A stretch of 64,000 nucleotides of DNA from Escherichia coli (lineage in GTDB: Bacteria > Pseudomonadota > Gammaproteobacteria > Enterobacterales > Enterobacteriaceae): assembly GCF_009931435.1 (NCBI RefSeq), contig NZ_CP043414.1; one strand, given 5' to 3'. Below the pieces are notes generated by a model. It was not told the origin of the DNA. It made no database searches and saw only the letters and a list, made by a program, of their open reading frames with translations. Made by a program: the position numbers and the translations under genes. Below, one piece after another: positions 3,841-63,068 of this stretch. The stretch's first letter is position 1, and each line of letters begins with the position of its first letter.

Positions 3841-5073
3841 ATGGCAAAGGTATCGCTGGAGAAAGACAAGATTAAGTTTCTGCTGGTAGAAGGCGTGCAC
3901 CAAAAGGCGCTTGAAAGCCTTCGTGCAGCGGGTTACACCAACATCGAATTTCACAAAGGCGCGCTGGATGATGAACAATTAAAAGAATCCATCCGCGATG
4001 CCCACTTCATCGGCCTGCGATCCCGTACCCATCTGACTGAAGACGTGATCAACGCCGCAGAAAAACTGGTCGCTATTGGCTGTTTCTGTATCGGAACAAA
4101 CCAGGTTGATCTGGATGCAGCTGCAAAACGCGGGATCCCGGTATTTAACGCACCGTTCTCCAATACGCGCTCTGTTGCGGAGTTGGTAATTGGCGAACTT
4201 CTCCTGCTATTGCGCGGCGTACCGGAAGCCAACGCTAAAGCACACCGTGGTGTCTGGAACAAGCTGGCAGCTGGCTCTTTTGAAGCGCGCGGCAAAAAGC
4301 TGGGTATCATCGGCTATGGTCATATTGGTACACAGTTGGGCATTCTGGCTGAATCGCTGGGAATGTATGTTTACTTTTATGATATTGAAAACAAACTACC
4401 GCTGGGCAACGCCACTCAGGTACAGCATCTTTCTGATCTGCTGAATATGAGCGATGTGGTGAGTTTGCATGTGCCAGAGAATCCGTCTACCAAAAATATG
4501 ATGGGCGCGAAAGAGATTTCACTAATGAAGCCCGGCTCGTTGCTGATTAATGCCTCGCGCGGAACGGTGGTGGATATTCCGGCGCTGTGTGACGCGCTGG
4601 CGAGCAAACACCTGGCAGGTGCGGCAATCGATGTCTTCCCGACGGAACCGGCGACCAACAGCGATCCATTTACCTCTCCGCTGTGTGAATTCGACAACGT
4701 CCTTCTGACGCCACATATTGGCGGTTCGACTCAGGAAGCGCAGGAGAATATCGGCCTGGAAGTTGCGGGTAAATTGATCAAGTATTCTGACAATGGCTCA
4801 ACGCTCTCTGCAGTGAACTTCCCGGAAGTCTCGCTGCCACTGCATGGTGGGCGTCGTCTGATGCACATCCACGAAAACCGTCCGGGCGTGCTGACTGCGC
4901 TGAACAAAATCTTTGCCGAGCAGGGCGTTAACATCGCTGCACAGTATCTGCAAACCTCAGCGCAGATGGGTTATGTGGTTATTGATATTGAAGCTGACGA
5001 AGACGTTGCCGAAAAAGCGCTGCAGGCAATGAAAGCTATTCCGGGCACCATTCGCGCCCGTCTGCTGTACTAA
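3841..5073 (+). CDS. serA: D-3-phosphoglycerate dehydrogenase
   Basis: Track ORF 410 aa; recognised SerA sequence (MAKVSLEKDKIKFLLVEGVHQ...) with C-terminal ACT domain. Confidence 0.95.
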   Translation: MAKVSLEKDKIKFLLVEGVHQKALESLRAAGYTNIEFHKGALDDEQLKESIRDAHFIGLRSRTHLTEDVINAAEKLVAIGCFCIGTNQVDLDAAAKRGIPVFNAPFSNTRSVAELVIGELLLLLRGVPEANAKAHRGVWNKLAAGSFEARGKKLGIIGYGHIGTQLGILAESLGMYVYFYDIENKLPLGNATQVQHLSDLLNMSDVVSLHVPENPSTKNMMGAKEISLMKPGSLLINASRGTVVDIPALCDALASKHLAGAAIDVFPTEPATNSDPFTSPLCEFDNVLLTPHIGGSTQEAQENIGLEVAGKLIKYSDNGSTLSAVNFPEVSLPLHGGRRLMHIHENRPGVLTALNKIFAEQGVNIAAQYLQTSAQMGYVVIDIEADEDVAEKALQAMKAIPGTIRARLLY

Positions 5074-5094
5074 TTCCCCTTCTCTGAAAATTAA

Positions 5095-5125
5095 CGGGCA
5101 GGTCACTGACTTGCCCGTTTTTTTA
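5095..5125 (+). terminator. Rho-independent terminator of serA
   Basis: Stem cgggcaggtcactgacttgcccg followed by T8. Confidence 0.8.
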
Positions 5126-5267
5126 TCCCTTTTCCCGCGCATGTCACTGCCATTTGTAGTGCGCTGCAATTGCCTTTGCGAGTCTGCTCGAAGAAATAAA
5201 TCAAAGCCAGATCAATGCGTTGTGCTTATTTAAAGAGAGTTTACGATGGCAGGGCAGCATGGGGCTG

Positions 5268-5412
5268 TAACGGTAAAGCCCTCACCGAAGCGAGGGCTTG
5301 AAGGAGAAGGGTTATGATGCGACTTGCCATCATACTGATTGTACTGTTACTCATAAGTTTGCCAGCTTATTAACAGTCAGTCACAGGGGAGGAGTCATCC
5401 TCCCTTACCCTT
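5268..5412 (-). ncRNA. sibC: Antisense sRNA SibC (antitoxin RNA overlapping ibsC); ends approximate
   Basis: Minus-strand promoter-like TTGACA (plus 5444-5449) N17 TAATTT (plus 5420-5425); minus-strand terminator hairpin gccctcgcttcggtgagggc + TTT near 5275-5300; fully overlaps ibsC. Confidence 0.5.
5314..5373 (+). CDS. ibsC: Type I toxin, 19-aa hydrophobic peptide (Ibs family)
   Basis: ATG ATG CGA ... TAT TAA encodes MMRLAIILIVLLLISLPAY; RBS aggagaagg 4 nt upstream; matches Ibs toxin family pattern and known serA-ygfA location of ibsC/sibC. Confidence 0.75.
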   Translation: MMRLAIILIVLLLISLPAY

Positions 5413-5473
5413 ACTCACTAAATTAGGTTAAAGAATCAACGATGTCAATCAGGGCGATGCAGGTGTGTCGCCC

Positions 5474-6022
5474 TTACCACTCCCAGACTTTCGACGGTGT
5501 AACCACCGCAGGAAGTGGGATATCCCACTCTTCAACGGGGAGTTTTTCCACCAACTGACAATCATGCGCATAACCCACCGGTTGCATTTGATAGCGCTGC
5601 CAGTTCTGTAAGGTCCGATCATAAAAACCACCGCCCATTCCCAGGCGCTGACCGTACTCATCAAAGGCGACCAGCGGTGTGATCAACACGTCTAATCGGG
5701 AAAGGGGTAGCACGTCACGCACATCCAGTTTTGGCTCATGGATCTTCAACCTGTTCATCACCAGTTCGCTTTGCGGATGGTAATTCAGGAACAGCAAATT
5801 ACCGGCACTAAAGGGATGCAAAACTGGAAGATATACGCGCTTACCGGCGCGCCAGAGTTGTTCTATGAGTGGCTGGGTGTCGAGTTCGCCATCAAAAGAG
5901 AGGAATACAGCGACCGTATGTGCCATCACCACCGGGGGATACGTCATCATCCGGGTAGCGGCTTGTTGACCCATTTCCTGCTGTTGTTCCGGCGTTAACG
6001 CACGACGACGTTGCCGAATCAT
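5474..6022 (-). CDS. ygfA: 5-formyltetrahydrofolate cyclo-ligase
   Basis: Track ORF 5474..6220; recognised protein begins MIRQRRRALTPEQQQEMGQQ at internal Met (182 aa); upstream part of track ORF overlaps the 6S RNA gene. Confidence 0.85.
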   Translation of the reverse strand: MIRQRRRALTPEQQQEMGQQAATRMMTYPPVVMAHTVAVFLSFDGELDTQPLIEQLWRAGKRVYLPVLHPFSAGNLLFLNYHPQSELVMNRLKIHEPKLDVRDVLPLSRLDVLITPLVAFDEYGQRLGMGGGFYDRTLQNWQRYQMQPVGYAHDCQLVEKLPVEEWDIPLPAVVTPSKVWEW

Positions 6023-6094
6023 TTTGCGGATTTCTTGTCGGGATAATGTCAGTGGGAGTTCTGGTAGTTGCGTCATGGCTGGTGCCAGATAAGA

Positions 6095-6280
6095 AGGGAA
6101 TCTCCGAGATGCCGCCGCAGGCTGTAACCCTTGAACCCTTGGTTCAAGGTGAATGTGTCGTCGCAGTTTTAAGGCTTCTCGGACGGACCGAGCATGCTCA
6201 CCAACCGCGGAGCGCCACATTCTTGTGGTATGAAATATCGGCTCAGGGGACTGGCCCGCTTGCGAACATCTCAGAGAAAT
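6095..6280 (-). ncRNA. ssrS: 6S RNA (RNA polymerase sigma70 holoenzyme-binding regulatory RNA)
   Basis: Reverse complement reads AUUUCUCUGAGAUGUUCGCAAGCGGGCCAGUCCCCUGAGCCGAUAUUUCAUACCACAAGAAUGUGGCGCUCCGCGG..., the recognised 6S RNA sequence; immediately upstream of ygfA. Confidence 0.93.
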
Positions 6281-16140: not shown

Positions 16141-16286
16141 GATGTCAAACTCAACATTGCCTGATGCACCTCGTTTATCAGGCCTACATAGTCTGTGCAA
16201 TGTATTGAATTTGCACGATCTTGTAGGCTGGATAAGGCGTTCACGCCGCATCCGGCATAATAAAAGCACTTTGTCATCAATAATTT
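16141..16286. repeat. REP/BIME element cluster between gcvP and ygfF
   Basis: Contains gcctgatgcacctcgtttatcaggcctaca and tgtaggctggataaggcgttcacgccgcatccggca, typical REP palindromes. Confidence 0.8.
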
Positions 16287-19744: not shown

Positions 19745-19910
19745 TGCCTTTGTAGGCCTGATAAGACGCGTCAGCGTCGCATCAGGCATCGGATCGCAAC
19801 TGCCGGATGCGGCGTGAACGCCTTATCCGGCCTACGGGCCGCGTCCTTGGTGTGATAAAGGCACCAAATCCCAGGCATGATAAGACGCGTCAGCGTCGCA
19901 TCAGGCAATA
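19745..19910. repeat. REP/BIME cluster (three REP palindromes) between yqfA and ygfZ
   Basis: Repeated gcctgataagacgcgtcagcgtcgcatcaggc and gccggatgcggcgtgaacgccttatccggcctac units. Confidence 0.85.
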
Positions 19911-62994: not shown

Positions 62995-63068
62995 GCGGGC
63001 GTAGTTCAATGGTAGAACGAGAGCTTCCCAAGCTCTATACGAGGGTTCGATTCCCTTCGCCCGCTCCA
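62995..63068 (+). tRNA. glyU: tRNA-Gly (anticodon CCC)
   Basis: GCGGGCGTAGTTCAATGGTAGAACGAGAGCTTCCCAAGCTCTATACGAGGGTTCGATTCCCTTCGCCCGCTCCA: 7-bp acceptor stem, anticodon loop CTTCCCAAG, T-loop GGTTCGATTCC, encoded CCA end. Confidence 0.95.

What the first reader, a model, noticed from the sequence alone, without database searches (positions are those of the whole stretch)
5250..5420. Type I toxin-antitoxin ibsC/sibC between serA and ygfA
A 19-codon ORF encoding the extremely hydrophobic peptide MMRLAIILIVLLLISLPAY with a strong SD sits in an otherwise non-coding spacer. The opposite strand carries a sigma70-like promoter and a terminator hairpin, so an antisense RNA of ~140 nt would fully overlap the ORF. 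The ORF track does not list it (too short) and it is easily missed in automated annotation.
Basis: partly seen in the sequence, partly recalled or inferred. Interest (0 to 1): 0.55.

Follow-up and report, generated by a model that had tools for sequence, protein, structure and literature searches.

The report
Known ibsC/sibC toxin-antitoxin locus
The spacer between serA and fau (ygfA) holds the well-known E. coli ibsC/sibC module, a 19-residue membrane toxin gene silenced by a fully overlapping antisense RNA; it is a natural allelic variant and otherwise ordinary.

Summary
A 19-codon ORF at 5314-5373 (+) encodes MMRLAIILIVLLLISLPAY behind an AAGGAG Shine-Dalgarno. It is the only ATG ORF of 15-30 codons in the 64-kb window with GRAVY of 2.0 or more. 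The opposite strand matches Rfam SIB_RNA (RF00113) at 133.6 bits against a gathering score of 56 (E 2e-28). The locus sits in the same serA-fau-ssrS synteny as the curated sibC (b4446) and ibsC (b4665) of E. coli K-12. Alignment to K-12 places SibC at 5412->5272 (-), 141 nt, with 133/141 bases identical. The ibsC mRNA maps to 5254-5412 (+). The locus is present in 5424 of 5426 complete E. coli genomes, and RefSeq annotates the toxin there. This copy differs from K-12 by V5A, F16L and S17P. Each substitution occurs in other natural alleles, but the exact 159-nt allele is absent from those genomes. Seven of the eight RNA differences fall in predicted loops, and four hit the TRD1 recognition loop. 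Antisense repression and membrane toxicity are inferred from published K-12 work, not tested here. Verdict: already known, low interest.

The parts
5220..5247 (+). Inferred ibsC promoter: weak -35 TTGTGC (5220-5225), 16-nt spacer, -10 TACGAT (5242-5247)
   Evidence: It sits 6 nt upstream of the ibsC +1. That +1 was transferred from K-12 using the Han et al. 2010 primers ERI-T7-ibsC and MscIIC+1 (PMC2943612). The -10 and the start site are identical to K-12. The simple promoter scan did not flag it.
5254..5412 (+). ibsC mRNA (159 nt), by homology
   Evidence: The 5' end GCAGCATGGGG equals the K-12 ibsC +1. Position +159 equals SibC +1, from the ibsC+159 primer (PMC2943612). The RNA is strongly structured, MFE -64.2 kcal/mol, z -5.0, with the same architecture as the K-12 mRNA. 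The 3' end was only estimated in the source paper.
5301..5306 (+). Shine-Dalgarno AAGGAG, 7 nt upstream of the ATG
   Evidence: Read directly from the sequence. It is unpaired in the predicted mRNA fold. It is complementary to the single-stranded J1/7 segment CUCCUUC of SibC.
5314..5373 (+). ibsC ORF, 19 codons plus TAA: MMRLAIILIVLLLISLPAY
   Evidence: Translation. 16/19 identical to K-12 IbsC MMRLVIILIVLLLISFSAY. GRAVY 2.33, unique among 477 short ORFs of the window. RefSeq annotates the equivalent CDS in the closest genomes.
5387..5404 (+). GGGAGGA/TCCTCCC hairpin: 3' hairpin of the ibsC mRNA, and P2 of SibC on the other strand
   Evidence: Inverted repeat I5 and the folds.
5420..5448 (-). 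sibC promoter: -35 TTGACA (5448-5443), 17-nt spacer, -10 TAATTT (5425-5420); alternative -10 CCTAAT with a 15-nt spacer
   Evidence: Covered by positions 1-30 of the Rfam SIB_RNA model. Only one base (5429) differs from K-12 across this stretch. It ends 7 nt upstream of the SibC +1 transferred from K-12. The choice of -10 hexamer is my inference.
5272..5412 (-). SibC antitoxin RNA, 141 nt (5' end 5412, 3' end 5272)
   Evidence: Coordinates were transferred from K-12 sibC b4446 through alignment A1. 133/141 identical. The 5' AAGGGTAAGGG matches the Han 2010 primer AatIIC-F. MFE -54.8 kcal/mol, z -4.6, with the P1/P2/P5/P6/P7 architecture. This is the same as K-12 and as the consensus of the five K-12 paralogs.
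5345..5367 (-). TRD1 (SibC nt +46 to +68; P5 loop), target recognition domain inside the ORF
   Evidence: Defined for K-12 SibC in PMC2943612. Here nt 49-52 are UGGC instead of K-12 GCUG, and they lie in the predicted 8-nt loop.
5298..5314 (-). TRD2 (SibC nt +99 to +115; J1/7), anti-SD and anti-translation-initiation segment
   Evidence: Defined in PMC2943612. Identical to K-12 here. Nt 107-113 are single-stranded in the fold.
5276..5299 (-). SibC terminator hairpin P7 (10 bp, UUCG loop) followed by UUUACC
   Evidence: Inverted repeat I2 and the fold. Identical to K-12. Compensatory changes occur among the paralogs.

Best explanation
This is the chromosomal type I toxin-antitoxin module ibsC/sibC of Escherichia coli, at its usual place between serA and fau (ygfA).

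The + strand gives a ~159-nt mRNA (5254-5412) that encodes the 19-residue hydrophobic peptide IbsC. The - strand gives the 141-nt SibC RNA (5412->5272), which is perfectly complementary to the whole ORF and its ribosome-binding site.

SibC contacts the mRNA through two exposed segments. TRD1 is the P5 loop, opposite codons 11-18. TRD2 is the J1/7 single strand, opposite the SD and the first base of the start codon. Pairing then spreads, translation initiation is blocked and the mRNA is degraded, so IbsC is normally not made.

If SibC falls short, IbsC inserts into the inner membrane, collapses membrane potential and ATP, and stops growth.

Shown here: the sequences, the structures, orthology and presence across the population. 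Inferred from published K-12 and Salmonella work: transcription of both strands, repression, and toxicity of this particular allele (A5, L16, P17).
For: - ORF and SD.
- Uniqueness of the hydrophobic short ORF in the window.
- Rfam SIB_RNA 133.6 bits against GA 56, E 2e-28.
- Synteny with curated K-12 sibC b4446 and ibsC b4665.
- Alignment to K-12 and transfer of coordinates.
- Present in 5424/5426 complete E. coli genomes, with the CDS annotated as IbsC or Ibs family toxin.
- SibC fold with P1-P7, the TRD1 loop and the single-stranded anti-SD, the same as K-12 and as the paralog consensus, with 10 compensatory pairs.
- Literature. TRD1/TRD2, transcript ends and mRNA degradation are in PMC2943612. 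Membrane depolarisation within minutes, psp induction and sequence requirements are in review PMC8309996. Sigma-70 transcription and NAD capping of A-initiated Sib RNAs are in PMC12956327. Sigma-S polymerase binding at sibC is in PMC4447067.
Against: - Nothing contradicts the identity.
- Functional caveat on the peptide. Its three changes are at V5, F16 and S17. The review cited describes V5 as the one N-terminal residue whose loss affects toxicity, and the C-terminal residues as required. F16 is invariant in all five K-12 Ibs paralogs. Toxicity of this allele is therefore not guaranteed.
- The sibC -10 hexamer is weak and the terminator lacks a U tract.
- NCBIfam gave no hit for the padded 20-aa peptide. 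This is uninformative for so short a sequence.
- No expression data exist for this genome.
Confidence: 0.93

Rival explanations
1. It is a decaying or neutralised copy. The RNA pair is still there, but the A5/L16/P17 peptide has lost toxicity, so the locus is a relic rather than a working toxin-antitoxin pair.
For: V5 and the C-terminal residues are reported as important for IbsC toxicity (PMC8309996). F16 is invariant in the five K-12 paralogs but is L here. SibA/ibsA in K-12 is reported as non-lethal when derepressed (PMC2943612).
Against: The ORF, SD, both promoters, both terminator hairpins and TRD2 are intact and near-identical to K-12. Hydrophobicity is preserved, GRAVY 2.33 against 2.44. 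A5, L16 and P17 each recur in other natural alleles, and P17 is the residue in K-12 IbsB and IbsE. The review states that IbsC tolerates many substitutions provided about 10 hydrophobic residues remain.
Confidence: 0.06
2. This rival keeps the same identity but changes the effector step. IbsC would not act as a general membrane-depolarising or pore-forming peptide. It would act as a specific inhibitor of a membrane protein, the Fo sector of ATP synthase, as a physiological regulator of ATP level rather than a 'toxin'.
For: A 2025 preprint reports that Salmonella IbsA, a 19-aa Ibs homolog at the yqiK-rfaE locus, binds the Fo a and b subunits, blocks proton translocation and lowers ATP (bioRxiv 10.1101/2025.05.26.656083).
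Against: That work concerns a different paralog in a different genus and is a preprint. For E. coli IbsC the published phenotype is rapid depolarisation and psp induction. Nothing in the sequence discriminates between the two modes.
Confidence: 0.25
3. The short ORF is a chance reading frame within an sRNA gene or intergenic hairpins, and no peptide is made.
For: Very short ORFs are abundant: 477 ATG ORFs of 15-30 codons in the window.
Against: It is the only one of the 477 with GRAVY of 2.0 or more, and it carries a consensus SD at ideal spacing. The frame, length, start and stop are conserved across five K-12 paralogs and all sampled E. coli alleles, despite nucleotide changes. Orthologs are experimentally toxic.
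Confidence: 0.01

Closest known systems
E. coli K-12 ibsC (b4665) / sibC (b4446, formerly rygC/QUAD1c), Rfam RF00113 SIB_RNA
   Same: The genomic position between serA and fau is the same. Lengths are the same: 19 codons, a 141-nt sRNA and a 159-nt mRNA. The SD, the start sites, TRD2, the terminator hairpins and the predicted P1-P7 architecture are identical. 133/141 nt and 16/19 aa are identical.
   Different: There are eight nucleotide differences, at SibC nt 17, 18, 30, 49-52 and 86. They give V5A, F16L and S17P in the peptide and a different 4-nt core (UGGC against GCUG) in the TRD1 recognition loop. The exact 159-nt allele is not in any of 5426 complete E. coli genomes; the best match is 98.7%.
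Other natural E. coli IbsC alleles (WP_001387035.1 MMRLAIILIVLLLISFPAY; WP_100635201.1 MMRLVIILIVLLLISLPAY; WP_071525914.1 MMRLVIILIVLLLISFPAY)
   Same: Same locus and same RNA architecture. Each carries one or two of the window's three substitutions.
   Different: None of the sampled alleles combines A5 with L16 and P17. RefSeq names two of these 'Ibs family toxin' rather than IbsC.
Paralogs ibsA/sibA, ibsB/sibB, ibsD/sibD and ibsE/sibE of K-12, and Salmonella ibsA/sibA
   Same: The design is the same: an 18-19-aa MM(K/R)...S-F-x-x-Y peptide, a fully overlapping ~136-145-nt antisense RNA, and a shared fold with compensatory pairs.
   Different: They lie at different chromosomal sites (yegL-mdtA; yqiK-hldE). 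Their TRD1 and TRD2 sequences differ and confer cognate-only repression (PMC2943612). The window copy has the R3 and the TRD2 of the C type.
Other type I toxin-antitoxin modules with small membrane toxins (hok/sok, ldr/rdl, tisB/istR-1, shoB/ohsC, zorO/orzO)
   Same: A small hydrophobic inner-membrane peptide is repressed post-transcriptionally by an antisense RNA, and overexpression depolarises the membrane.
   Different: In Ibs/Sib the antitoxin overlaps the entire ORF and the translation initiation region. [quoted passage not shown] In hok/sok the antitoxin binds at the SD of the upstream mok reading frame. The peptide is also much shorter (19 aa).

Membership tests
Ibs/Sib type I toxin-antitoxin family | Antisense sRNA matching the Rfam SIB_RNA (RF00113) covariance model at or above the gathering score | tested here: met
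   133.6 bits against gathering 56, E 2e-28, full model 1-147, window 5298-5448 (-).
Ibs/Sib type I toxin-antitoxin family | An 18-19-codon ORF on the opposite strand encoding a highly hydrophobic peptide of the Ibs pattern (MM[KR]...S-F-x-x-Y), preceded by an SD | tested here: met
   MMRLAIILIVLLLISLPAY, GRAVY 2.33, SD AAGGAG 7 nt upstream. 16/19 identical to K-12 IbsC. One deviation: L replaces the otherwise invariant F16.
Ibs/Sib type I toxin-antitoxin family | The sRNA spans the whole ORF and the translation initiation region of the toxin mRNA (complete cis overlap) | tested here: met
   SibC 5272-5412 contains SD 5301-5306 and ORF 5314-5373. The ends were transferred from K-12 annotation and from the Han 2010 primers. 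Transcript ends in this strain are inferred, not measured.
Ibs/Sib type I toxin-antitoxin family | Conserved Sib secondary structure (P1 closing stem, P2, P5 stem-loop carrying TRD1, P6, single-stranded J1/7 carrying TRD2, P7 terminator) | tested here: met
   The MFE fold of the window SibC reproduces it, z -4.6. It is the same as the K-12 fold. The RNAalifold consensus of the window copy plus five K-12 paralogs has 44 pairs, 10 of them with compensatory changes.
Ibs/Sib type I toxin-antitoxin family | Peptide toxic on overexpression, and toxicity relieved by the cognate Sib RNA | not testable with these tools
   Known for K-12 IbsC/SibC (PMC2943612; PMC8309996). The window allele (A5, L16, P17) is untested.
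ibsC/sibC ortholog specifically (as opposed to paralogs A, B, D, E) | Position between serA and fau (ygfA), next to ssrS | tested here: met
   serA 3841-5073 (+), fau 5474-6220 (-), 6S RNA 6097-6280 (-). The order is the same in K-12 and in the closest genome.
ibsC/sibC ortholog specifically (as opposed to paralogs A, B, D, E) | C-type recognition domains TRD1 and TRD2 | tested here: inconclusive
   TRD2 (nt 99-115) is identical to K-12 SibC. The TRD1 core nt 49-52 is UGGC, against GCUG in K-12 SibC and UGCG in SibD. Cognate pairing is automatic for a cis pair. Cross-talk with paralogs of the source genome could not be examined.
NCBIfam / Pfam protein family for Ibs toxins | HMM match of the peptide | tested here: inconclusive
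   NCBIfam returned 0 families for the peptide padded to 20 aa. The Pfam tool needs at least 30 aa and the cluster look-up at least 20 aa. At 19 residues the peptide is below the length limits of the Pfam and cluster look-up tools, and a miss in NCBIfam is uninformative for so short a sequence.

The most novel reading that the evidence does not exclude
This allele carries a 4-nt replacement in the TRD1 kissing loop and an A5/L16/P17 peptide. The exact 159-nt allele (mRNA span 5254-5412) is absent from 5426 complete E. coli genomes. Among 11 sampled alleles, 13 of 16 polymorphic sites fall in unpaired SibC positions, which make up 33% of the RNA (binomial P about 1e-4). One reading is ongoing diversification of the antitoxin's recognition loops, and with them toxin residues 5, 16 and 17. 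Such diversification could shift specificity or cross-talk among the Sib paralogs between strains. The alternative is simple relaxed constraint on loops.
Probability: 0.1. Interest if true: 0.3.

Novelty: already known. Interest (0 to 1): 0.1.

Why it matters
It matters little beyond correct annotation. The module has been characterised since 2008-2010, is in Rfam, and its toxin CDS is annotated by RefSeq in essentially every E. coli genome.

Two practical points remain. First, automated records list the ibs CDS but not the sibC antitoxin RNA, so the pair is only half annotated outside curated K-12. Second, the natural variation seen here changes the experimentally defined specificity loop TRD1 together with residues 5, 16 and 17 of the toxin. 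That gives ready-made natural mutants for testing Sib/ibs discrimination and the sequence requirements of IbsC.

Tried and rejected
- **Simple promoter and terminator scan.** It flagged neither the real sibC promoter nor either Sib/ibs terminator. Its single minus-strand promoter hit (5365-5338) lies inside the ORF and could not give a fully overlapping RNA, so I rejected it as chance.
- **NCBIfam on the peptide padded to 20 aa.** No family was returned. This is uninformative for so short a peptide.
- **Scan of 100,044 species-representative genomes with AAGGGTYATGATGN9CATCAT.** The aim was to map the family outside E. coli and test whether the serA-fau position is conserved. It returned only three hits, in two Porphyromonadaceae MAGs and one Thaumarchaeota MAG. 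None encodes a hydrophobic peptide. The number is about what I expected by chance (my own estimate). No Enterobacteriaceae hit came back at all, which I cannot explain. Taxonomic spread therefore rests on the literature.
- **Primary papers.** The Fozo et al. 2008 and Mok et al. 2010 papers are not held. Their results are cited second-hand through PMC2943612 and PMC8309996.
- **Hairpin overlapping the fau stop codon (about 5451-5474, minus strand).** I considered it as a terminator insulating sibC from ssrS-fau read-through. Its fold is no better than shuffled sequence, z -0.12, so no claim is made.
- **Other ORFs across the locus.** The 42-aa TTG ORF at 5298-5426 (+) and the 37-aa ORF at 5241-5354 (-) are in other frames, are not hydrophobic, and I treat them as spurious.

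Full report
**What is in the sequence**

The spacer between serA (3841-5073, +) and fau/ygfA (5474-6220, -) is 400 nt long. An AAGGAG Shine-Dalgarno lies at 5301-5306, 7 nt before the ATG.

As a control I listed all 477 ATG-started ORFs of 15-30 codons on both strands of the 64-kb window. Only this ORF, and its nested second ATG, reaches a Kyte-Doolittle GRAVY of 2.0 or more (2.33), and both have an SD. It is not a chance ORF.

**The antisense gene**

Rfam SIB_RNA (RF00113) matches the minus strand at 5298-5448 with 133.6 bits, against a gathering score of 56 (E 2e-28). The match covers the whole model. The model's first ~30 positions are the promoter, TTGACA at 5448-5443, then 17 nt, then TAATTT at 5425-5420.

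Its -10 is weak, so the simple consensus scan did not report it. The scan's one minus-strand hit (5365-5338) is internal to the ORF and cannot give a fully overlapping RNA.

The antisense terminator is a 10-bp hairpin with a UUCG loop (5299-5276), followed by UUUACC only. The scan missed it as well.

**Orthology**

The gene order rpiA-serA-[locus]-fau-ssrS-zapA-ygfB-pepP is that of E. coli K-12. In the curated K-12 record, sibC (b4446, 141 nt) and ibsC (b4665) occupy the same spacer.

Alignment of the spacers transfers the K-12 coordinates onto the window. SibC runs 5412->5272 on the minus strand, 141 nt, with 133/141 bases identical.

Primer sequences in Han et al. 2010 (PMC2943612) fix the ends:
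- SibC +1 is the A of AAGGGTAAGGG, at 5412.
- ibsC mRNA +1 is the G of GCAGCATGGGG, at 5254.
- ibsC mRNA +159 coincides with SibC +1.

A -10 TACGAT (5242-5247) with a weak -35 TTGTGC (5220-5225) sits at the right distance from 5254. This promoter assignment is inferred.

The four short inverted repeats in the locus are the stems expected for the two RNAs.

**Structure**

The window SibC folds at -54.8 kcal/mol (z -4.6). The fold has the following elements:
- a closing stem P1;
- hairpin P2;
- a long stem ending in an 8-nt loop that carries TRD1;
- hairpin P6;
- a single-stranded CUCCUUC anti-SD segment (J1/7, part of TRD2);
- the terminator P7.

K-12 SibC gives the same architecture. The consensus fold of the window copy plus the five K-12 paralogs keeps 44 pairs, 10 of them with compensatory changes. 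The predicted mRNA folds are also alike, with the SD unpaired.

**Population**

The 159-nt locus is found in 5424 of 5426 complete E. coli genomes, at 90-99% identity. None is identical; the best is 98.7%. The whole spacer is 99.3% identical to one strain, and RefSeq annotates the CDS as IbsC or 'Ibs family toxin'. Over 12 kb the window is 95-99% identical to nearly all E. coli genomes, the listed best hits reaching 97.1-98.6%. The source is therefore E. coli in the broad sense.

Sampled alleles encode V/A/I at residue 5, F/L at 16, S/P at 17 and R/Q at 3. The window combines A5, L16 and P17, and no sampled allele has that combination.

Of the eight nucleotide differences from K-12 SibC, seven are in predicted loops. 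Four of them (nt 49-52, UGGC for GCUG) form the core of TRD1, the loop that Han et al. showed discriminates SibC from SibD. TRD2 is unchanged.

Among 11 alleles, 13 of 16 polymorphic sites lie in unpaired positions, which are 33% of the RNA (binomial P about 1e-4). The sample is small and not corrected for phylogeny.

**Mechanism**

Two layers of evidence need to be kept apart. Shown here are the sequence features, complementarity, folds, orthology and near-universal presence. Taken from the literature are the following:
- Sib RNAs are expressed constitutively and repress the cognate ibs mRNA.
- TRD1 or TRD2 alone suffices. Pairing spreads from these contacts, and the mRNA is degraded.
- IbsC overexpression depolarises the membrane within minutes, induces the psp operon and kills cells. 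The peptide can be shortened to about 15 residues if hydrophobicity is kept, and V5 and the C-terminal residues matter.
- sibD is transcribed by sigma-70 polymerase, and A-initiated SibC/D/E RNAs can be NAD-capped.
- Sigma-S polymerase binds at sibC.
- A preprint reports that Salmonella IbsA inhibits the Fo sector of ATP synthase. This is an alternative for the effector step.

Because this allele changes V5, F16 and S17, its toxicity is inferred, not certain. The intact signals, and the recurrence of each substitution in other strains and in paralogs, argue against decay.

**Dead ends**

- NCBIfam gave nothing for so short a peptide.
- A scan of species-representative genomes with a family-wide pattern gave only three chance hits and, unexpectedly, no Enterobacteriaceae.
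- The two primary papers from 2008 and 2010 are not held.
- A hairpin at the fau stop codon is not better than shuffled sequence.

**Verdict**

The feature is the already known ibsC/sibC module in a natural allelic form. Interest is low. The one mildly interesting aspect is that variation is concentrated in the experimentally defined recognition loop and in toxin residues 5, 16 and 17.

Noticed in passing
window 6097-6280 (-): 6S RNA (ssrS), Rfam RF00013 at 139.8 bits, immediately upstream of fau on the same strand as sibC. This is the expected neighbour in E. coli.
   Followed up: no
window 5132-5173: The stretch between the serA terminator (5093-5119) and the ibsC promoter is the most variable part of the spacer. 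It has a 12-nt insertion relative to K-12 and many substitutions among strains, while the ibsC/sibC core is 95-99% conserved in most genomes.
   Followed up: partly
window 5272-5412 compared with loci L001, L002, L005-L012: 13 of 16 polymorphic sites among 11 E. coli ibsC/sibC alleles fall in predicted unpaired SibC positions, which are 33% of the RNA (binomial P about 1e-4). The sites are clustered in the P2, P5 (TRD1) and P6 loops. The sample is small and there is no phylogenetic correction.
   Followed up: partly
loci L001, L005-L012 (RefSeq E. coli records): PGAP-annotated genomes list the ibs CDS (and ssrS in the one locus, L001, wide enough to include it) but carry no sibC ncRNA feature. 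Only the curated K-12 record has sibC. The antitoxin half of the pair is systematically unannotated.
   Followed up: yes
window 19755-19832 (both strands); 16180-16222 (-): There are Rfam hits to naRNA4/CssrE (81.3 and 59.7 bits on the two strands, typical of a palindromic REP-type element) and to ES036/CssrF (38.4 bits, just above its gathering score).
   Followed up: no
window 62995-63068 (+): tRNA-Gly (anticodon CCC), the only tRNA in the window.
   Followed up: no
window about 5451-5474 (-): An AGGGCGA/TCGCCCT hairpin overlaps the fau stop codon, directly upstream of the sibC -35. It could limit read-through from ssrS-fau into sibC. However, it has no T tract and its fold is no better than shuffled sequence, z -0.12.
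   Followed up: partly
Genome-contig collection (loci L013-L015): A family-wide Ibs/Sib DNA pattern found no Enterobacteriaceae among 100,044 species-representative genomes. It gave only three chance hits, in Porphyromonadaceae and Thaumarchaeota MAGs. The pattern matches all five K-12 copies, so the collection or its index seems not to return these genomes.
   Followed up: partly
E. coli complete genomes: One of 7295 sibC-like places lies on a plasmid rather than a chromosome, and some genomes have a second matching place. Neither was examined.
   Followed up: no
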